Of a stretch of 64,000 nucleotides of DNA, positions 211 to 12,677 are shown piece after piece. This stretch comes from Deltaproteobacteria bacterium (GTDB lineage: Bacteria; Desulfobacterota; DSM-4660; Desulfatiglandales; HGW-15). The notes beneath the pieces were generated by a model. It saw only the letters and a program-made list of their open reading frames with translations. It was not told the origin of the DNA and did no database searches. How positions within the stretch are numbered: position 1 is the first letter of the stretch; each line of letters opens with the position of its first letter. The DNA lies in assembly GCA_016930835.1 (NCBI GenBank), contig JAFGGA010000136.1, positions 8,960-72,959 of the forward strand, written 5' to 3'. The translations under genes were made by a program, and so were the position numbers.

Positions 211-813
211 ATGAAATTGAGTCAAAAACAAAAGGAATTTTTGGGCTATATCTCCCGTTATGTGGATGAATGGGGGCATTCCCCCAGTTTTGACGAAATA
301 TGCGCCCATTTTGGTTTTAACTCCTATAACACGGTCACCACCTATCTCAAGATCCTGGAACGAAAAGGTTATGTTCGGCTTCCCGGTAAAAACCGAAAGC
401 GGGCCATCGAGGTCATCAGCCCTGTGGAAACACGGCGGTTTGAGTTCCCTCTCCTGGGAAAGGTGGCCGGCGGAAAACCCATTGAGGCCATCGAAGACGT
501 GAACGTGATCGAGGTCCCGCCCTCCATGATCGGAAAAGGGGACCACTTTGTCCTGCAGGTCAAGGGATCATCCATGGAGGATGACGGGATCCTGGACGGT
601 GATTTTGTGGTGATCCGCAGGCAGGCCACCGCGGAAAACGGCGAGACCGTCGTGGCCCTCCTCAACAACGAGGCCACGGTCAAGCGATATTACAAGACCA
701 ATGGCCGCGTGGAACTCCGCCCCGCACACAAGGGTATGGAATCCATATGGGTTGATGAAGGTGATCTCCACATTCAAGGTAAGGTGGTGGGGGTGATGAG
801 GCATTATAGATAA
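211..813 (+). CDS. lexA: LexA repressor (S24 peptidase)
   Basis: 200-aa ORF. N-terminal winged helix (YNTVTTYLKILERKGYV), cleavage region VAGG, catalytic Ser context GSSMEDDGI, Lys in ATVKRYY. GGAGG SD upstream of the ATG. Confidence 0.95.
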   Translation: MKLSQKQKEFLGYISRYVDEWGHSPSFDEICAHFGFNSYNTVTTYLKILERKGYVRLPGKNRKRAIEVISPVETRRFEFPLLGKVAGGKPIEAIEDVNVIEVPPSMIGKGDHFVLQVKGSSMEDDGILDGDFVVIRRQATAENGETVVALLNNEATVKRYYKTNGRVELRPAHKGMESIWVDEGDLHIQGKVVGVMRHYR

Positions 814-820
814 GGCGCAG

Positions 821-857
821 GGTATAAGGTGTACGGTTTACGGTATAAGGTTTAAGG
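821..857 (+). repeat. Tandem heptamer array, left arm (TATAAGG TGTACGG TTTACGG TATAAGG TTTAAGG)
   Basis: Five consecutive 7-mers of pattern TNTAMGG read directly at 823-857. Complementary to the array at 1242-1269. The last unit forms the AAGGAGG SD of the next ORF. Confidence 0.85.
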
Positions 858-867
858 AGGAAGAATA

Positions 868-1224
868 ATGGGGGATTTTCAAAAGCTTAAGGTTTGGAAG
901 CGTGCGAAGGACCTAGCTGTTTCAATTTATAAAGCGACCGGGAAAGGTTCATTCCTTAAAGATTATAACCTCAAAGATCAGATTCGGCGGGCTGCCATTT
1001 CGATCCCAAGCAATATAGCAGAGAGGGATGAATTGGGAACCAACAGACAATCCATAAAGTTTTTTCGTATTGCAAAAGGCTCTGCTGCCGAACTATTCAA
1101 TCAAACTATTATAGCCTTTGAAATTGGTTATTTTACACAACCTCAATTTGAGCAAGTTAAAGAGGAATGCCAGGCGATTTCAAGCATGTTGCCAAGGCTA
1201 ATTCATGTAAGAGCAAAATATTAA
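868..1224 (+). CDS. Four-helix-bundle protein (23S rRNA intervening-sequence protein family)
   Basis: 118-aa ORF with family-typical motifs: FQKLKVWKRAKDLAVSIY, IRRAAISIPSNIAE, AKGSAAEL. Strong SD. Confidence 0.85.
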   Translation: MGDFQKLKVWKRAKDLAVSIYKATGKGSFLKDYNLKDQIRRAAISIPSNIAERDELGTNRQSIKFFRIAKGSAAELFNQTIIAFEIGYFTQPQFEQVKEECQAISSMLPRLIHVRAKY

Positions 1225-1240
1225 GCATCGCTCAATACTC

Positions 1241-1271
1241 ACCGTATACCTTATACCGTACACCGTGAACC
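1241..1271 (+). repeat. Tandem heptamer array, right arm (CCGTATA CCTTATA CCGTACA CCGTGAA), inverse of 821-857
   Basis: Four consecutive 7-mers that are reverse complements of the TNTAMGG units, starting about 17 nt after the ORF stop. Confidence 0.85.
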
Positions 1272-1346
1272 TTTCCCCTCACGCCTTTTATCCCTCAGCA
1301 AAGAGGTTTATTTATAAATTTTATACGGAAAAAGGAAGATAAAAAC

Positions 1347-2507
1347 TTGCGTAATATCATTCATCTCCACATCCCTTCCTTCCAAATCACCTTGGAACGG
1401 GTGAATCGTCTTGAGCTTCGGGATCGGCCCGTGGTGGTGGCGCCGGCCCATTCAGAACGGGCCCTGATCCTTTCCGTATCCCGCGAGGCCCGAAGGGAAG
1501 GAATCTTCAAGGGCATGGCCCTGAACAAGGCCCTGCGGTTCTGTCCGGATCTGACGGTTTTACCCCCTAATCCCGGGCTTATGGAAAAGGGAACCCAGGC
1601 CCTTACCGAGGCCGTGGCTCATTATACCCCCCTGTGGGAACCGGCCCAGCCTGGTCACATGTACATGGATGTCACGGGAACAGAGCGTCTGTGGGGGCGG
1701 GCCAAAGACGCGGCCCGACGTATCGGCAAGGAGATGAAGGATCGCCTCTCTCTTCCAGGCGCCGTCGGCGTCGCCGGCAACAAGATGGTTTCCGGCATCG
1801 CATCGCGGCTCATGGCTACGGAAGGGGTGCTGGATGTGGATCATGGCCGGGAGTCCGCGTTTATGGCTCCGCTCAAGGTAGATTTTCTGCCTGGCATCGG
1901 CCATGTGAGAAAGAGGGTCCTCCTGGAGGAACTCCATATCACCCTGGTTAGGGAAATCGCTGTTTTGGATATGCAGCATTTGAAGATGGTTTTTGGCATG
2001 CAGGCCCTTATGATCCATCAACGGGCATGGGGAATCGACCCCACACCGGTCCACCCCCCTGAAAGAAAACCCATGGTGAGCGAGAGCATCACCCTTGCCC
2101 GTGATGAGAACGATGACTATAAACTCCTGGCAACCCTGTATGCCATGGTGGAAAAATGTGGGCAACGGCTTCGAAGCAGATCCTTGGTTCCCCGGCATGC
2201 CGGCCTGTTGATTCGATATTCCGATCAGATGGAGGTGGCGCGGCAAGTCAAATTGAACGGCGCGACCTTTTACGATATGGATCTCTATGCCCCTTTGGAG
2301 ATGATTTTTTACAAGGCTTACCAGCGCCGAGTCGGTATCCGTTTTATGCGGGTGTGGTTTCGGGATCTTATAGTCCCTTCGCCTCAACTCTCACTTTTTT
2401 CGAGGACTCCTGCATATGACGGCAAAAAAGCCCCGGTGACAAATGCCTTGGATCGCATCCGGGAGCGGTATGGAGAAAAAGCTATAAAATATGGAAGAGC
2501 GGTATAA
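1347..2507 (+). CDS. imuB: ImuB-like inactive Y-family DNA polymerase
   Basis: 386-aa ORF with overall DinB/Y-family layout. The catalytic DMDAFFASVE-type motif is replaced by HLHIPSFQITLE, as in ImuB. TTG start per ORF track with AAGGAAG upstream. Lies immediately upstream of dnaE2. Confidence 0.8.
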   Translation: MRNIIHLHIPSFQITLERVNRLELRDRPVVVAPAHSERALILSVSREARREGIFKGMALNKALRFCPDLTVLPPNPGLMEKGTQALTEAVAHYTPLWEPAQPGHMYMDVTGTERLWGRAKDAARRIGKEMKDRLSLPGAVGVAGNKMVSGIASRLMATEGVLDVDHGRESAFMAPLKVDFLPGIGHVRKRVLLEELHITLVREIAVLDMQHLKMVFGMQALMIHQRAWGIDPTPVHPPERKPMVSESITLARDENDDYKLLATLYAMVEKCGQRLRSRSLVPRHAGLLIRYSDQMEVARQVKLNGATFYDMDLYAPLEMIFYKAYQRRVGIRFMRVWFRDLIVPSPQLSLFSRTPAYDGKKAPVTNALDRIRERYGEKAIKYGRAV

Positions 2508-2605
2508 GGTTTACGGTCTACGGTTTACGGATGGAAACTATACATCTTGCCTTAACCCGTATACCGTACACCGTATATCATACACCTTATACCGTACAAC
2601 ATAAG
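2501..2605 (+). repeat. Inverted heptamer-array hairpin without cargo (4 units TNTACGG/TATAAGG, 19-nt spacer, 8 units CCKTAYA)
   Basis: TATAAGG TTTACGG TCTACGG TTTACGG at 2503-2530. CCTTAAC CCGTATA CCGTACA CCGTATA TCATACA CCTTATA CCGTACA ACATAAG at 2550-2605. The left arm overlaps the imuB stop codon (2505-2507). Confidence 0.85.
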
Positions 2606-2617
2606 CCGAGTCTAGCT

Positions 2618-5600
2618 ATGATCAATTTTATCCACCTCCATGTCCATTCTCATTTTTCCAAGGGCTGGGGCATAGGCTCCATTGAGGAACTCTGTCAATG
2701 CGCCCGGGCCTATCACATGGACCGGTTCGCCCTGACCGACACCAACGGCCTTTACGGACTGGTCTTCTTTGTTCAGAGCGCCATGGAGATGGGCATCAAG
2801 CCTATTGTGGGCAGTGAGATCGTATGCGACAATCACCGGGCCGTCCTGCTGGTGCGCGGCCATGAAGGGTATGCCAATCTCTGCCGGATTATATCCGACC
2901 GGCATTGCCATGAAGATTTCGACCTGATCCAATCGCTCAGACAGCGTCGCAATGGGCTCATCATCTTTTCCGACGACTTCCGTCTGCTCAAGGTCCTAAA
3001 GAAAGATGCCTTGGAAGATCTTTATGTGGAGATGTCGCCGGGTTACAGCATGCATTCCTGCTATGCATTCTCACGCGAGAGCGGCATCCCGCCCTTAGCC
3101 ACCAACCGGGTCTATCTGGTTCACAAAGATCAATGTCCGCTCCATCGAATACTCCGGGCCGTGGCCCTCAACAGCAAGCTGTCGCGTTTGACACCGAATG
3201 ACACGTGTAGGGAACATGGTTTTTTTAATTCTTCGCAGGCCATGATCGACCAGTTTCCCCATGCACCCCAAGCCATCCACAATACGGCTAAGGTGGCGGA
3301 CCAATGCATGATAAACTGGGATTTTAGCGGCGTCATCTTTCCGAGCTTTCAGGAGATGTCGGACAGGGAGGCCTTTGACCGTCTATATCAGGCCACGCTG
3401 GAAGGATGCAAGTGGCGGTACGGAGAGATCACCCCGGTTGTCCGGGAGCGCATAGATCATGAGATGCGGATCATCCGGGAAAAGAATTTTGCCCATTATT
3501 TTCTGGTGGTGGCCGATATCACGAAAAAGGCACAACGATCATGCGGAAGGGGGAGTGCCGCGGCGTCCATTGTTTCCTATGCCCTGGGCATCACCCACGT
3601 GGACCCCATCAAACATCATCTTTTTTTTGAACGGTTTTTAAATCCCGGACGGGTCGATCCTCCGGATATTGATGTGGACTTTGCATGGGATGAAAGAGAA
3701 CAGGTGATCGACTATGTTTTTGCACGGCATGGAAACCAACGGGCCGCCATGGTGGCCAACCATAACACCTATGGGGCCCGGTCGGCCGTTCGTGAGGTGG
3801 CCAAGGTTTTTGGCCTGACGGACGCGGAGATCGGTCGGGTGACCGACCGTATCGGATTCGGCTGGCGGCTAAAGAAGACCTGGAAAGAGCTGAAAACCCA
3901 TCCCAAGATGCGTGACGTGGAATTCAAAGAGCCATGGGATGATATCCTGGCCGCGGCCGTGCAACTGGAGGATCACCTGAATCATCTGTCCGTCCATTGC
4001 GGGGGCCTGGTGGTGGTGCCGGATGAGATACGCCGTTACTGCCCCGTGGAGATCTCCGCAAACGGGGCCCAGGTCCTTCAGTGGGAAAAGGATTCCGTGG
4101 AAGAGGCTGGCCTTGTCAAGATTGATATCCTGGGTAACCGCAGTTTGGCGGTCATTCGTGATGCATTGGCTTTGGTGGAAAAGAATTATGGTATTCGGAT
4201 CGATTACGCCACCTGGGACCCTATCCAGGACCCCGACACCGTGGAGATCTTTTATCAGGGTGATACATTCGGGGTGTTTTATTTTGAGAGCCCGGCCACC
4301 CGTCAGGTCCTGACCAAGGTAGCCAGCGGCCTGACCTTGGATACATACCGCACTCTGGATCATTTTCATCTCAACGTGGTGGTTACATCCATTATCCGTC
4401 CGGCGTCCAACCAGAGCATACGAACCTGGGTATCCAGACTCCACGGTCAGGCATGGGATGCCCCTCATCCCCTTTTACGCCCCGTGTTGGAAGAGACCCT
4501 GGGTGTCATGGTATTCCAGGAGCAATTGAGCCAGGCCGCCATCTGCATGGCTGGCTTTGACGCAGCCGAGGCCGATATGTTGCGCAAGGTGGTGAGCAAG
4601 AAGCACAGGGAGAAAAAGCTCAAGGATTTTCACACCCGGTTTATCAAGGGGGCCTCTGAGAGGGGGGTAACCACGGAGGTGATCGAAGATGTCTGGCAGA
4701 TGATGATGGGTTTTGACGGTTATAGTTTCTGCAAGCCCCATTCAGCCAGCTATACCCTGGTGGCCTACAAGTCAGCCTTTCTCCGGGCCCATTACCCGGC
4801 GGAATTTATGGCCTCGGTCATCTCAAACGGCGGCGGTTACTACTCCACCTTCGGTTATATATCCGAGGCAAAACGCATGGGTCTCCGTGTCCTTCCGCCG
4901 GACATCAATCTCAGTGAAGTCAAGTATATGGGTAAAGATCGCGACATCCGTGTGGGACTTATGCAGTTGAAAGAGCTTTCTCACGAGGCCAAGGAGGTCA
5001 TTGTGTTTGACCGTTCGCGAAACGGCCCATTCCTGTCCCTGGATGATTTTTTAAGGCGTATCGGACACCACATGCATTTTCAAGACGTCAGAATTTTAAT
5101 CAAGGCGGGCTGCTTTGATAGTATTAATCAGGGTATTGATCGGCCCGGCCTGGTGTGGAAGGCCCTGCGATTCTTTGACACCCATGCCCAAACCCTTCCC
5201 CCTCGCAGGTTATGTCGTAACGAAAAGCAGGTCATTCTCCAACAAAAGAATCAGGATCTTCGACCGAACGAGCAATGTCATGCATTGCAAGATCCGGAAT
5301 CCAGGCATGCAAAACCATTCCAAAAATATCTATTCAATTCTCATAAAGATTCGCCACCCATGGAGCCCCTTCCTTTTTTGTCGAACAACTTTCCATCCAT
5401 TTCTCCCTCATCCGGAGGGAAGAGCTCGTCACTTCTCCCCTCCCCCGGCGGGAGGAACGCGCCATTTCTCCCCTCCCCTAGCGGGAGGGGTTGGGAGAGG
5501 GGGTTGAATGAAAAACCCCCTTATCCCAAACACATCATGCTTAAGCACGAATCCGAGACCCTGGGTTTCATCCTTTCGATGCACCCTCTGGAGCTTTATC

Positions 5601-5956
5601 AAGATATCCTAAAAGAGCTGAACCTCATACACGCCAAAGATCTTGATAAGCATGTGGGTAAATATATCACCATCATCGGCTGGCTCGTGACCGGCAAGAC
5701 CGTGCTTACCAAGGCCGGTGACCCCATGAAGTTCATCTCTTTTGAAGACACCACCGGAATCTATGAGGCCGTGTTCTTCCCTAAGGTCTATAATCGATAT
5801 TGCCACATGCTTAATGCGTCACGACCTTATTTGATCAAGGGAAGGGTCGAGAAGGATTTTGGGTCTGTGAATGTGAATGTAAATTGGGTGGAGTTTTTGG
5901 ATCGACATAAAAAAAATAAAGATTATCGAAATCTGAAAATAACGGCGAAGCCTTGA
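2618..5956 (+). CDS. dnaE2: Error-prone DNA polymerase III alpha-like subunit DnaE2
   Basis: PHP motif INFIHLHVHSHFS at the N-terminus, GRGSAAASIVSYALGITHVDP, PPDIDVDF, C-terminal OB-fold region. The track ORF starts at 2531, but those 29 codons translate the heptamer array, so I prefer the ATG at 2618. Confidence 0.9.
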   Translation: MINFIHLHVHSHFSKGWGIGSIEELCQCARAYHMDRFALTDTNGLYGLVFFVQSAMEMGIKPIVGSEIVCDNHRAVLLVRGHEGYANLCRIISDRHCHEDFDLIQSLRQRRNGLIIFSDDFRLLKVLKKDALEDLYVEMSPGYSMHSCYAFSRESGIPPLATNRVYLVHKDQCPLHRILRAVALNSKLSRLTPNDTCREHGFFNSSQAMIDQFPHAPQAIHNTAKVADQCMINWDFSGVIFPSFQEMSDREAFDRLYQATLEGCKWRYGEITPVVRERIDHEMRIIREKNFAHYFLVVADITKKAQRSCGRGSAAASIVSYALGITHVDPIKHHLFFERFLNPGRVDPPDIDVDFAWDEREQVIDYVFARHGNQRAAMVANHNTYGARSAVREVAKVFGLTDAEIGRVTDRIGFGWRLKKTWKELKTHPKMRDVEFKEPWDDILAAAVQLEDHLNHLSVHCGGLVVVPDEIRRYCPVEISANGAQVLQWEKDSVEEAGLVKIDILGNRSLAVIRDALALVEKNYGIRIDYATWDPIQDPDTVEIFYQGDTFGVFYFESPATRQVLTKVASGLTLDTYRTLDHFHLNVVVTSIIRPASNQSIRTWVSRLHGQAWDAPHPLLRPVLEETLGVMVFQEQLSQAAICMAGFDAAEADMLRKVVSKKHREKKLKDFHTRFIKGASERGVTTEVIEDVWQMMMGFDGYSFCKPHSASYTLVAYKSAFLRAHYPAEFMASVISNGGGYYSTFGYISEAKRMGLRVLPPDINLSEVKYMGKDRDIRVGLMQLKELSHEAKEVIVFDRSRNGPFLSLDDFLRRIGHHMHFQDVRILIKAGCFDSINQGIDRPGLVWKALRFFDTHAQTLPPRRLCRNEKQVILQQKNQDLRPNEQCHALQDPESRHAKPFQKYLFNSHKDSPPMEPLPFLSNNFPSISPSSGGKSSSLLPSPGGRNAPFLPSPSGRGWERGLNEKPPYPKHIMLKHESETLGFILSMHPLELYQDILKELNLIHAKDLDKHVGKYITIIGWLVTGKTVLTKAGDPMKFISFEDTTGIYEAVFFPKVYNRYCHMLNASRPYLIKGRVEKDFGSVNVNVNWVEFLDRHKKNKDYRNLKITAKP
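5401..5503 (+). repeat. Three tandem ~33-bp GC-rich hairpin units embedded in frame in dnaE2
   Basis: TTCTCCCTCATCCGGAGGGAAG (5401-), TTCTCCCCTCCCCCGGCGGGAGG (5433-), TTCTCCCCTCCCCTAGCGGGAGGGG (5466-). Period about 33 nt = 11 codons. Translated as ISPSSGGKSSS / LLPSPGGRNAPF / LPSPSGRGWERG. Confidence 0.8.
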
Positions 5957-12513: not shown

Positions 12514-12570
12514 GATTAAAGTTTTGCTCATCATATACCGATGACATAGTTGAAAAATAAAATTTTATTA

Positions 12571-12652
12571 TGCAAAAGGGCAAACCATCCGAAAGGTTGG
12601 GACGCAAAGCCTCCGGTCTAAGTCCTAAATAGGATAGGGTAGCGGGGTTGCA
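12571..12652 (+). promoter_or_regulatory. c-di-GMP-I (GEMM-I) riboswitch aptamer
   Basis: GGGCAAACCAUCCGAAAGGUUGGGACGCAAAGCCUCCGG...GUAGCGGGGUUGCA is near-identical in the conserved positions to the V. cholerae Vc2 aptamer (GGGCAAACC..GAAAG..GGGACGCAAAGCCUCCGG..UAGCGGGGUU). P1 is UGCAA/UUGCA. Confidence 0.85.
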
Positions 12653-12677
12653 ATGCTTAAGCGTATGCTGCATTTAG

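What the first reader, a model, noticed from the sequence alone, without database searches (positions are those of the whole stretch)
2501..2617. Cargo-less copy of the same inverted heptamer hairpin between imuB and dnaE2, overlapping the stop and start signals
Seen: 4 units (TATAAGG TTTACGG TCTACGG TTTACGG, 2503-2530), a 19-nt spacer, then 8 inverse units (2550-2605). The left arm contains the imuB stop codon (2505-2507). The right arm ends 12 nt before the homology-supported dnaE2 ATG (2618), which has no visible SD. An in-frame ATG at 2531 would translate the right arm as IPYTVYHTPYTVQ. Inference: this is either an empty site or excision footprint of the element carrying the four-helix-bundle gene, or a structured intercistronic RNA controlling dnaE2 translation or mRNA stability. 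Two such hairpins within 1.8 kb and none elsewhere in the 64 kb points to a specific link to this cassette.
Basis: partly seen in the sequence, partly recalled or inferred. Interest (0 to 1): 0.62.

Follow-up and report, generated by a model that had tools for sequence, protein, structure and literature searches.

The report
Gene-less remnant of a hairpin-bounded gene cassette
The hairpin between imuB and dnaE2 is the gene-less remnant of a small cassette whose two arms are inverted runs of 7-base repeats; the same kind of cassette forms the intervening sequences of 23S rRNA, and in this lineage such cassettes fill both gaps of the DNA-damage operon.

Summary
Four perfect TNTAMGG units (2503-2530), a 19-nt loop and seven recognisable inverse units plus one degenerate (2550-2605) fold far better than shuffles (z about -4). 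The imuB stop lies in the first unit, and the arm ends 12 nt before the dnaE2 ATG at 2618.

It is not coding. Eleven orthologues start DnaE2 at M-x-(x)-F-I-H-L, and ten of them have in-frame stops 6-75 nt upstream. It is not an intrinsic terminator and matches no Rfam family.

Comparison shows an ORF-less derivative of a cassette. At the same junction L129 carries an intact four-helix-bundle (PF05635) gene inside GGTNTAM arms. L150 carries that gene with a 245-nt internal deletion. The window and L132 keep only the arms. The window's right arm aligns unit for unit with L150's.

Other relatives carry a PD-(D/E)XK (PF13366) gene or its remnants in differently flavoured arms. No orthologue has an empty junction.

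The same architecture surrounds PF05635 genes on cyanobacterial plasmids, in cas operons and in a true 23S rRNA intervening sequence.

Arrays of this flavour occur in at least 120 genome loci across many phyla, almost none near SOS genes, so the link to this operon is historical.

How the hairpin works remains inferred. Arm mismatches show no G·U excess, which argues against sense-RNA-specific selection.

The parts
211..813 (+). lexA, first gene of the operon
   Evidence: TIGR00498 LexA, E = 5e-57, above the curated cut-off. Pfam LexA_DNA_bind plus Peptidase_S24.
812..857 (+). Left (G-type) arm of the cargo-bearing sister cassette: AAGGCGC AGGGTAT AAGGTGT ACGGTTT ACGGTAT AAGGTTT AAGG. Its last unit runs into the Shine-Dalgarno sequence AAGGAGG of the 4HB gene.
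   Evidence: TRF period 7 at 821-857. Inverted pair I1, 46 nt and 76% complementary, with 1242-1287.
868..1224 (+). Four-helix-bundle protein gene (118 aa; 23S rRNA intervening-sequence protein family, also called S23p or Avd-like). It is the cargo of the sister cassette.
   Evidence: PF05635, E = 2.9e-31. TIGR02436, E = 1.4e-30, above the cut-off.
1241..1287 (+). Right (C-type) arm of the sister cassette.
   Evidence: TRF period 7 at 1241-1266. Inverted pairs I1 and I2.
1347..2507 (+). imuB-like inactive Y-family polymerase gene with a TTG start. Its stop codon TAA (2505-2507) lies inside the first heptamer of the hairpin.
   Evidence: Pfam IMS plus IMS_C. DNA polymerase IV models match only below their cut-offs. 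The N-terminus reads IIHLHIPSF. From memory, this replaces the catalytic D-x-D segment of DinB.
2501..2530 (+). Left arm of the cargo-less hairpin: GG + TATAAGG TTTACGG TCTACGG TTTACGG.
   Evidence: (D1, I6).
2531..2549 (+). Loop ATGGAAACTATACATCTTG, read here as the remaining interior of the former cassette. Its 3' part, ACATCTTG, matches ACATCATG just inside the right arm of L150. Its 5' part, ATGGAAAC, resembles the sequence after the left arm in L129 (ACATGAAAC) and in L132 (GGGAAAC).
   Evidence: Alignment A3. blastn of window 2541-2694 against L150 278-428: 78% over 154 nt. Sequences.
2550..2605 (+). Right arm: 7 recognisable CCKTANA units plus 1 degenerate unit. It aligns unit for unit with the right arm of L150's decayed 4HB cassette, including the odd unit TCATACA / TCGTAGA.
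   Evidence: (D2).
2606..2617 (+). 12-nt spacer ACATAAGCCGAGTCTAGCT...ATG with no Shine-Dalgarno sequence. L132 shares the tail AGCTATG.
2618..5956 (+). dnaE2 (error-prone DnaE-type polymerase). The true start is the ATG at 2618.
   Evidence: The PHP domain begins 6 residues after this start. NF004225 'error-prone DNA polymerase' matches but below its cut-off. Eleven orthologues start M-x-(x)-F-I-H-L, ten of them with in-frame stops 6-75 nt upstream.

Best explanation
What it is (well supported). Positions 2501-2605 are the ORF-less derivative of a small gene cassette. The two ends of such a cassette are inverted arrays of a tandem heptamer, here GGTNTAM. The G-rich array lies 5' of the C-rich array on either strand.

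The intact form carries a four-helix-bundle (PF05635) gene with its own Shine-Dalgarno sequence in the loop. One intact copy sits 1.2 kb upstream, between lexA and imuB. At the imuB-dnaE2 junction the interior has been lost by internal deletion. Only the arms and about 19 nt of former interior remain.

The cassette is of the same kind as the ORF-bearing intervening sequences of 23S rRNA. The gene-less form is of the same kind as the published 'convergent' heptamer repeat pairs.

How it works (inferred).
- The hairpin is transcribed inside the lexA-4HB-imuB-dnaE2 mRNA.
- Its arms pair, so the insertion is looped out.
- The base of the stem brings the imuB stop codon (in the first unit) next to the dnaE2 start, which has no Shine-Dalgarno sequence and lies 12 nt past the last unit.
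- A ribosome terminating on imuB would open the stem base and could hand over to dnaE2.
- In this way an insertion of 110-550 nt can sit in a tightly coupled junction without breaking expression, much as the stem of an rRNA intervening sequence preserves helix 45.
- By analogy with those intervening sequences the stem may also be cut by RNase III.

I regard the element itself as selfish or neutral DNA that is maintained at the DNA level. It was not built to regulate dnaE2.
For: Decay series at the orthologous junction.
- L129/L139 have imuB, then GGTNTAM arms around an intact 118-aa 4HB gene, then dnaE2.
- L150 has the same cassette with L129 positions 1273-1517 missing. This leaves a 37-aa in-frame fusion.
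- L132 and the window have only arms. Their gaps are 112 and 110 nt, they align collinearly at 68.5% over 286 nt, and both have the stop TAA in the first unit.
- The window's right arm and the 9 nt inside it align unit for unit with L150.

The same decay is seen for the other cargo: full PF13366 genes (L122, L126, L130), a truncated gene (L131), a 46-aa remnant (L124), and arms around non-coding filler (L135, L164).

Generality of the cassette.
- Most of the 23 complete relatives of the 4HB gene found in metagenomes sit between inverted tandem arrays.
- Of 10 plasmid 4HB genes chosen without regard to repeats, 7 have such arrays on both sides. One of them, L160, lies inside a 23S rRNA gene.
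- The Coxiella intervening sequence has the same ORF family, a 28-bp terminal stem, tandem heptamers and RNase III excision (PMC4990558).

Not coding and not a terminator.

Geometry.
- In 9 of 11 orthologues the outermost predicted pair lies within about 11 nt of the imuB stop and about 6 nt of the dnaE2 start, although the gaps range from 110 to 553 nt.
- dnaE2 lacks a Shine-Dalgarno sequence in all 11. lexA, the 4HB gene and imuB each have one.

Position. Hairpins of this flavour lie between co-directional (17) or convergent (12) genes and almost never between divergent ones (1). They usually lie 0-25 nt from both neighbours. Rehm et al. report the same pattern for GGGAATC repeats (PMC4692102).
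Against: - Arm mismatches show no excess of G·U over A·C: 77 against 84 in 48 hairpins of known orientation, and 20 against 20 at this junction. The antisense strand of the window hairpin folds better than the sense strand, -48.3 against -42.4 kcal/mol. So nothing shows selection on the sense RNA structure.
- The window's nearest relative by ImuB (L122, 85% identity) has a different cassette at this junction, PF13366 in CWCAGAG-type arms. The history therefore includes replacement or recombination, and I cannot prove that this particular copy ever held the gene.
- Transcription, RNase III cleavage and translational coupling were not observed. They are inferred from anatomy and from the rRNA analogy.
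- The outermost pairs come from minimum-free-energy predictions that were not compared with shuffled controls.
Confidence: 0.62

Rival explanations
1. The hairpin is an adaptive intercistronic regulatory RNA. It would be selected to control dnaE2 translation or mRNA stability, for example as an RNase III site or a 3'-end stabiliser of imuB mRNA. Its origin from a cassette would be incidental.
For: Every one of the 13 or more orthologous operons examined has a hairpin at this junction, and none is empty. Arms persist long after the interior has decayed (L135, L164, L124). The stop and the SD-less start sit at the stem base. The fold has z about -4.
Against: There is no G·U over A·C bias and the antisense strand folds better. 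The arms at this junction come in at least three unrelated sequence flavours with different cargo, so no specific RNA sequence is conserved. The same hairpins occur in hundreds of unrelated contexts, including between convergent genes. No Rfam family matches.
Confidence: 0.22
2. The hairpin is a pre-existing gene-less repeat hairpin that serves as a landing pad. Cassettes with matching arms enter it by homologous recombination between arrays. The window would then show the empty state, not a decayed one.
For: Gene-less arrays and hairpins far outnumber gene-bearing ones: only 6 of 120 genome loci hold a 4HB gene. Cargo and flavour states are mosaic on the ImuB tree.
Against: L150 is a clear internal deletion of the gene. 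L124 and L131 show the same for PF13366. The window's loop keeps bases that are interior to the arm in L150. Arms and cargo type travel together: PF13366 is always in CAGAG-type arms here.
Confidence: 0.1
3. The arrays are DNA-level binding sites for a protein, for example the neighbouring 4HB protein or a host nucleoid or repair factor. The arrays would act as double- or single-stranded DNA. Hairpin potential would be a by-product of inverted site arrangement.
For: Six of the seven positions of the unit are conserved across phyla while position N varies and is often mismatched between arms. The properties are strand-symmetric: there is no G·U bias, and the G-rich array lies 5' on both strands in 37 cases against 2.
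Against: No binding data exist. N positions are still paired more often than chance: 54% of all units against 41% expected, and higher within stems. Many unrelated flavours exist, which would need many specificities.
Confidence: 0.15
4. The repeat is coding. DnaE2 would start at the ATG at 2531, and the right arm would encode an N-terminal extension IPYTVYHTPYTVQ.
For: The ATG at 2531 is in frame, and the longest ORF is 2531-5956.
Against: All 11 orthologues begin at the position homologous to 2618 (M-x-(x)-F-I-H-L). Ten have in-frame stops 6-75 nt upstream, and 8 have no upstream in-frame start at all. L132, with the orthologous hairpin, has a stop at -60. The PHP domain starts 6 residues after 2618.
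Confidence: 0.02
5. The hairpin is an intrinsic terminator or attenuator that separates imuB from dnaE2.
For: It is a strong stem-loop directly after a stop codon.
Against: No T-run follows the stem, and the terminator scan finds nothing at 2500-2620. The stem is AT-rich with a mismatch every 7 nt. dnaE2 follows with no convincing promoter: the only candidate is a 9-of-12 consensus match inside the arm, and such matches are no more frequent here than in shuffles.
Confidence: 0.03

Closest known systems
Intervening sequences (IVS) of 23S rRNA, both ORF-bearing (Leptospira, Coxiella, Brucella; S23p ORF) and ORF-less (Salmonella, Yersinia; the ORF-less examples are cited from memory)
   Same: The insertion is bounded by terminal inverted repeats that form a long stem. 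The loop carries a PF05635 four-helix-bundle ORF or nothing. Tandem heptamers lie next to the ORF: GACAGAT in Coxiella (PMC4990558), and GACAGAG/GACGGAG arrays in the Azospirillum 23S gene fetched here (L160). ORFs decay while the stem persists.
   Different: This element lies in an mRNA intercistronic gap, not in helix 25 or 45 of 23S rRNA. Excision by RNase III is unproven here. The arms are explicit multi-unit tandem arrays.
Intergenic heptamer simple-sequence repeats: GGGAATC in Xanthomonas (Rehm et al. 2015, PMC4692102), TAACTGA in Beggiatoaceae, Cyanobacteria and Bacteroidetes (MacGregor 2015, PMC4679880), and the STRR repeats of heterocystous cyanobacteria
   Same: The units are 7 nt in tandem, typically about 4 per array. 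They are mostly intergenic, lie between aligned or convergent ORFs, are rare between divergent ORFs, and sit close to stop codons. Xanthomonas has 70-75 pairs per genome in 'convergent' orientation that can form stem-loops. Unit number varies between relatives. The function is unknown.
   Different: The unit sequence differs: GGTNTAM has no GGG tract, so it is not the G-quadruplex type. In the parts of those papers that I read, I found no link between the repeats and 4HB or PD-(D/E)XK genes or rRNA intervening sequences.
REP/REPIN elements and their RAYT transposase genes (from memory: Nunvar et al. 2010; Bertels and Rainey 2011)
   Same: A gene is flanked by inverted copies of a short repeat. 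The same repeat occurs in many gene-less inverted doublets that form hairpins in intergenic regions at the 3' ends of genes. It works like a pair of autonomous and non-autonomous elements.
   Different: The cargo is not a Y1 (IS200/IS605-like) transposase. The arms are tandem heptamer arrays rather than a single imperfect palindrome. No mobilising enzyme has been identified.
[quoted passage not shown]
   Same: A short non-coding derivative keeps the inverted ends of a longer gene-bearing element, through internal deletion.
   Different: I saw no target-site duplication, the parent encodes no transposase, and the ends are repeat arrays.

Membership tests
23S rRNA intervening sequence (IVS) | Inserted in a 23S rRNA gene (helix 25 or 45) | tested here: not met
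   The hairpin lies between the imuB and dnaE2 coding regions. Rfam finds no rRNA in the window. By contrast, L160 lies inside a gene that matches LSU_rRNA_bacteria.
23S rRNA intervening sequence (IVS) | Bounded by terminal inverted repeats that form a stable stem | tested here: met
   The arms are 31 nt and 84% complementary. RNA fold -42.4 kcal/mol, z = -4.0.
23S rRNA intervening sequence (IVS) | Loop carries an S23p / PF05635 ORF (ORF-bearing subclass) | tested here: not met
   The loop is 19 nt. The ORF is present in the sister cassette at 868-1224 and at the orthologous junction in L129.
23S rRNA intervening sequence (IVS) | Excised from the transcript by RNase III without religation | not testable with these tools
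Convergent heptamer repeat pairs (Rehm et al. 2015 type) | Tandem 7-nt units, about 4 per array, in two arrays on opposite strands in convergent orientation | tested here: met
   There are 4 units and 7-8 units, period 7, in G>C orientation. That orientation holds in 37 of 39 paired sites elsewhere.
Convergent heptamer repeat pairs (Rehm et al. 2015 type) | Intergenic, between aligned or convergent ORFs, within 50 bp of a stop codon | tested here: met
   The imuB stop lies inside the first unit. For the family: 17 co-directional, 12 convergent, 1 divergent.
Convergent heptamer repeat pairs (Rehm et al. 2015 type) | G-tracts of at least 3 G that can form G-quadruplexes | tested here: not met
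   The units carry only GG.
REP/REPIN-RAYT system | The repeat flanks a Y1 (RAYT) transposase gene | tested here: not met
   The cargo genes are PF05635 or PF13366.
REP/REPIN-RAYT system | Many dispersed copies in the same genome | tested here: inconclusive
   There are only two sites in 64 kb, both in the operon. The rest of the source genome was not available. Other genomes hold several sites: one Bacteroidales genome (RUG538) accounts for at least 4 of the loci (L002, L039, L071, L079), and L039 alone has five arrays in 8 kb.
MITE | Terminal inverted repeats plus a target-site duplication | tested here: inconclusive
   Inverted ends are present. I saw no direct repeat flanking the arms when reading the junctions of the window, L132, L129 and L150. 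Repeat arrays make the boundaries ambiguous.
Intrinsic (Rho-independent) terminator | GC-rich stem followed by a U-run | tested here: not met
   There is no terminator-like site at 2500-2620 and no T-run after 2605.
N-terminal coding extension of DnaE2 | The upstream in-frame region is conserved as protein and open in orthologues | tested here: not met
   Ten of 11 orthologues have in-frame stops 6-75 nt upstream of the conserved start.
Any curated RNA family (Rfam 15) | Covariance-model match | tested here: not met
   There is no hit at gathering threshold and none at E <= 1 in 700-2750.

The most novel reading that the evidence does not exclude
Inverted tandem-repeat hairpins, until now catalogued only as 'heptamer SSR pairs', may be the ends and relics of one widespread and unrecognised class of mobile gene cassettes. 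These cassettes would carry either a four-helix-bundle (PF05635) gene or a GxxExxY PD-(D/E)XK (PF13366) gene. The 23S rRNA intervening sequences would be the best-known special case.

The cassettes would colonise transcribed gaps of operons (SOS, cas, exopolysaccharide, rRNA). They would be tolerated because their arms loop the insertion out. They would be propagated or maintained by a DNA-level, strand-symmetric process. The G-rich strand always runs 5' to 3' towards the centre. This is what repeat addition to both 3' ends of a break, or template switching within a palindrome, would produce.

In this lineage the SOS operon may have become dependent on the arms to keep imuB and dnaE2 translationally coupled.
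Probability: 0.25. Interest if true: 0.8.

Novelty: new variant of a known kind. Interest (0 to 1): 0.58.

Why it matters
Three literatures have stayed separate: rRNA intervening sequences, whose origin and mobility have been unexplained since about 1990; abundant intergenic heptamer repeats of unknown function; and the very common but uncharacterised 'four helix bundle' and 'GxxExxY' proteins. They appear to describe one object at different stages of decay.

The SOS operon of this Thermodesulfobacteriota lineage offers a natural series at one orthologous site: intact, internally deleted and empty. Questions about how such cassettes arise, decay and affect host gene expression can therefore be tested on defined sequences.

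There is also a practical point for annotation. The in-frame ATG at 2531 is not the dnaE2 start. In addition, 4HB genes reported as 'CRISPR-associated' may be passengers of such cassettes inside cas operons.

Tried and rejected
- Rfam at gathering threshold and at E <= 1 on 700-2750 gave no family for the hairpin.
- The terminator and promoter scan found no terminator at the hairpin. It found one 9-of-12 promoter-like match inside the right arm (2552-2581), but such matches are no more frequent here than in shuffles, so I do not rely on it.
- Literature searches for TIGR02436, PF05635, GxxExxY, PF13366, S23p and heptamer terms found no paper in the held library that links these genes to flanking tandem-repeat hairpins outside rRNA.
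- The Geobacter metallireducens heptanucleotide families (PMC2700814) have other sequences and are not obviously the same thing.
- Ralph and McClelland 1993 is not held.
- A viral-contig scan with a Pedobacter 4HB protein found nothing. A PF13366 query failed on a frame error.
- I tested for sense-strand RNA selection by counting G·U against A·C mismatches. The result was negative, 77 against 84, so I lowered the weight of the regulatory-RNA reading.
- I tested whether the variable position N is unconstrained for pairing. The result was intermediate: 54% paired against 41% expected by chance and 61-75% at the other positions.
- The integron attC reading was considered. I rejected it on architecture (arms on both sides of the ORF, tandem heptamers, no integrase nearby) but did not test it formally.
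- A genome-wide census in the source organism was not possible.
Full report
**1. The observation**

The region reads exactly as described.
- After ...GAAGAGCGG come four perfect units, TATAAGG TTTACGG TCTACGG TTTACGG (2503-2530).
- A 19-nt spacer, ATGGAAACTATACATCTTG, follows.
- The inverse units CCTTAAC CCGTATA CCGTACA CCGTATA TCATACA CCTTATA CCGTACA ACATAAG occupy 2550-2605. Seven are recognisable and the last is degenerate.
- The imuB ORF (1347-2507, TTG start) ends with TAA at 2505-2507, inside the first unit.
- The ATG at 2618 lies 12 nt after the last unit.

Tandem Repeats Finder and the repeat finder recover the arrays independently.

A degenerate two-unit pattern gives 16 hits in the window against 0.43 expected. 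Fifteen of these lie in the four arrays at 821-857, 1242-1271, 2501-2530 and 2550-2600.

The 136-nt region folds at -42.4 kcal/mol as RNA (z = -4.0). As DNA it also gives z = -4.0. Its antisense RNA folds at -48.3 kcal/mol (z = -4.8).

No other such hairpin and no second PF05635 or PF13366 gene occurs in the 64 kb.

**2. The surroundings**

The genes are lexA (211-813), a 118-aa four-helix-bundle (4HB) protein gene of family PF05635/TIGR02436 (868-1224), an ImuB-like Y-family polymerase gene (1347-2507) and a DnaE-type polymerase gene.

The 4HB gene lies between a G-type array (812-857) and a C-type array (1241-1287) of the same heptamer. It is therefore the loop of a 46-nt-arm hairpin.

The window comes from an uncultured Thermodesulfobacteriota ('Deltaproteobacteria') genome.

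**3. It is not coding, not a terminator and not a known RNA family**

Eleven orthologous dnaE2 genes all begin M-x-(x)-F-I-H-L at the position homologous to 2618. Ten have in-frame stop codons 6-75 nt upstream. Only the window has the ATG at -87.

The PHP domain starts six residues after 2618.

No T-run follows the stem, and the terminator scan finds nothing there.

Rfam gives nothing at gathering threshold or at E <= 1.

**4. The same junction in relatives**

I retrieved orthologous lexA-imuB-dnaE2 loci through ImuB homologues and through relatives of the 4HB protein. Not one has an empty imuB-dnaE2 junction.

With GGTNTAM arms:
- L129/L139 carry an intact 118-aa 4HB gene with its own AGGAGG.
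- L150 carries the same cassette with 245 nt of the gene missing (L129 1273-1517). This leaves an in-frame fusion of 24 N-terminal and 13 C-terminal codons.
- L132 and the window carry arms only. Their gaps are 112 and 110 nt, both have the TAA stop in the first unit, and both end ...AGCTATG. They align collinearly at 68.5% over 286 nt.

The window's right arm aligns unit for unit with that of L150. The match includes the odd unit TCATACA / TCGTAGA and the bases just inside the arm, ACATCTTG / ACATCATG.

I read this as a decay series: intact, then internally deleted, then arms only.

With unrelated CACAGAG-type arms, the cargo is a PD-(D/E)XK gene (PF13366, 'GxxExxY'). It is full length in L122, L126 and L130, truncated in L131, and a 46-aa remnant in L124. 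In L135 and L164 it has been replaced by non-coding nested hairpins.

L125 has a gene-less hairpin of a GGCGYAR flavour.

The lexA-imuB gap behaves the same way.
- It holds a 4HB gene in GGTNTAM, GGCGTKA or TCAGCNN arms.
- It holds gene-less hairpins of the TCAGCNN flavour in L124 and of a CCTAAAGT flavour in L164.
- L151 keeps an 18-codon 4HB remnant.

On a neighbour-joining tree of ImuB these states are mosaic. The window's closest relative (L122, 85% identity) has the PF13366 cassette at junction 2. Replacement or recombination has therefore occurred as well as decay.

**5. How general the architecture is**

The hits came from Bacteroidota, Desulfobacterota, Planctomycetota, Acidobacteriota, Cyanobacteria, Gemmatimonadota, Chloroflexota, Clostridia and other groups.

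In those loci I counted 37 sites where a G-type array is followed closely by a C-type array, against 2 in the opposite order. There were also 116 solitary arrays. The paired sites fold into long stems with a mismatch about every seventh position.

Six loci contain 4HB genes, most of them between such arrays.

Only 3 of the 120 loci contain anything resembling lexA, imuB or dnaE, so the arrays are not tied to SOS genes.

A 62%-identical 4HB cassette with GGTNTAM arms sits in a Wzz/GNVR-AAA-ParA exopolysaccharide operon. The same contig holds a PF13366 gene between TCTGCG-type arrays.

Paired sites lie between co-directional (17) or convergent (12) genes and once between divergent genes. They usually lie within 0-25 nt of both neighbours.

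As a sample chosen without regard to repeats, I took 10 plasmid-borne 4HB genes from PLSDB.
- Seven lie between inverted tandem 6-8-mer arrays (GGGAAAA, GGCAGAA, GGGAACA, GGTGACA, GGGTGTA, GACAGAG).
- One lies between direct arrays.
- Two have arrays on one side only.
- Two of the ten sit between cas6 and cas4.
- One, from Azospirillum, lies inside a 23S rRNA gene and is thus a true intervening sequence.

The Coxiella intervening sequence has the same ORF family, a 28-bp terminal stem, tandem GACAGAT heptamers next to the ORF, RNase III excision and a decaying ORF (PMC4990558).

**6. What is already published**

Heptamer tandem repeats are known as an over-represented class of bacterial intergenic repeats.
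- Rehm et al. describe about 185 GGGAATC arrays per Xanthomonas genome, including 70-75 'convergent' inverted pairs. These are enriched between aligned ORFs, depleted between divergent ORFs, lie close to stop codons, are mostly transcribed, and have unknown function (PMC4692102).
- MacGregor describes TAACTGA repeats in Beggiatoaceae, Cyanobacteria and Bacteroidetes (PMC4679880).
- Zhang and Ye noted PF05635 genes inside cas loci, often next to Cas4-like nucleases (PMC3936711).

In the held library I found no paper that connects these repeats with 4HB or PF13366 cargo or with rRNA intervening sequences. That is a statement about this library, not about all literature.

**7. How it may work**

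Shown:
- The arms are complementary.
- The stop codon of imuB lies in the 5' base of the stem.
- dnaE2 has no Shine-Dalgarno sequence in any of 11 orthologues, whereas lexA, the 4HB gene and imuB have one.
- In 9 of 11 orthologues the outermost predicted pair of the whole intercistronic region lies within about 11 nt of the stop and about 6 nt of the start, although the gaps range from 110 to 553 nt.

Inferred:
- The arms loop the insertion out of the mRNA and keep the imuB stop next to the dnaE2 start.
- Termination-dependent opening of the stem would then allow coupled initiation of dnaE2.
- By analogy with the rRNA elements, RNase III may cut the stem.

This would explain why only self-pairing insertions accumulate at this junction and why arms outlive their cargo.

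Against an RNA-level selected structure:
- Among 48 hairpins of known orientation, mismatches between arms are G·U-compatible 77 times and A·C 84 times. At this junction the counts are 20 and 20.
- The antisense strand of the window hairpin folds better than the sense strand.

The variable position N pairs less often (54%) than the other positions (61-75%) but more often than chance (41%).

The properties of the arms are therefore strand-symmetric. This points to maintenance at the DNA level, for example by slippage, by template switching within the palindrome, or by recognition of the unit by a protein. The rule that the G-rich array is always the 5' one on both strands (37 against 2) remains unexplained.

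**8. Verdict**

Comparative data sharpen it to 'internal-deletion derivative at a junction that carries the intact gene in relatives'.

The 2618 start is confirmed.

The supposed specific link to the SOS cassette is a matter of lineage history, not of mechanism.

The element is a new variant of known kinds: rRNA intervening sequences and convergent heptamer repeat pairs.

The wider point may be the more interesting result. These known kinds, together with two very common uncharacterised small-protein families, appear to be one cassette system. That claim needs a systematic census and experiments.

Noticed in passing
window 812-1287: The 4HB (PF05635) cassette sits between lexA and imuB. From memory, canonical mutagenesis cassettes carry imuA at that position. 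No imuA was seen in the operon (lexA-4HB-imuB-dnaE2); the rest of the window was not checked. Across orthologous loci the 4HB protein is about as conserved as the host genes (for L126: lexA 77%, 4HB 74%, imuB 68%, dnaE2 64% identity). Yet L124 and L164 lack it, so it is dispensable at least sometimes.
   Followed up: partly
window 1018-1032 (4HB residues 51-55): The window's 4HB protein reads NIAERDE. Its closest relative (L122) reads NIAEGDE, and the other six sequences in my alignment also keep Gly (or Ser in one case) after the invariant Glu. This may be a sign of relaxed constraint in this copy.
   Followed up: no
window 2598-2617 and orthologues: dnaE2 has no recognisable Shine-Dalgarno sequence in any of 11 orthologues, whatever cassette precedes it. 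In loci with CACAGAG-type arms the arm end GTGGTGA lies 5-9 nt before the ATG and could serve as a weak substitute.
   Followed up: partly
L002-L121 (genome loci): When two arrays are adjacent, the G-rich array is 5' of the C-rich one in 37 cases and 3' in 2. This holds on either strand. Rehm et al. report the same 'convergent' rule for GGGAATC. I have no tested explanation.
   Followed up: partly
L004 3749-3860; L019 4903-5080; L033 3590-3810; L028 1870-2040: Arrays of different flavours lie directly next to each other, for example GGTNTAM units followed by GCTGAHH units, or by TCTAAAA/CCCTCTAA units. Composite arrays suggest that flavours are added or exchanged in blocks.
   Followed up: no
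L153 860-1500 (Pseudanabaena plasmid, between cas6 and cas4): A 4HB gene is flanked by direct, not inverted, arrays: (AAAGCTA)n upstream and (AAAGCCA)n downstream. This is an exception to the hairpin rule.
   Followed up: no
L131 4170-4215, L135 2680-2900, L164 2700-2900: In decayed PF13366 cassettes the interior is filled with additional perfect nested hairpins, for example ttttcatttgccg...cggcaaatgaaaa. This looks like a second kind of small palindromic element inserted into the first.
   Followed up: no
L124, L125, L126, L128, L130, L151, upstream of lexA: TTACAG-N(8-9)-CTGTAA-like palindromes recur upstream of lexA and are probably the LexA box of this clade. I did not see one in the 130 nt upstream of lexA in the window. 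The window begins only 210 nt before the gene.
   Followed up: partly
window 2552-2581: A sigma-70-like match (TTAACC-18-TATCAT, 9 of 12) lies inside the right arm and would give dnaE2 a leader of about 30 nt. Such matches are no more frequent in this region than in shuffles.
   Followed up: no
window 5397-5488: A 33-nt tandem repeat, 2.8 copies with consensus CCATTTCTCCCCTCCCCCGGCGGGAGGAACGCG, lies inside the 3' part of dnaE2.
   Followed up: no
window 12569-12655: A c-di-GMP-I riboswitch aptamer on the + strand: 81.7 bits, E = 1.5e-14.
   Followed up: no
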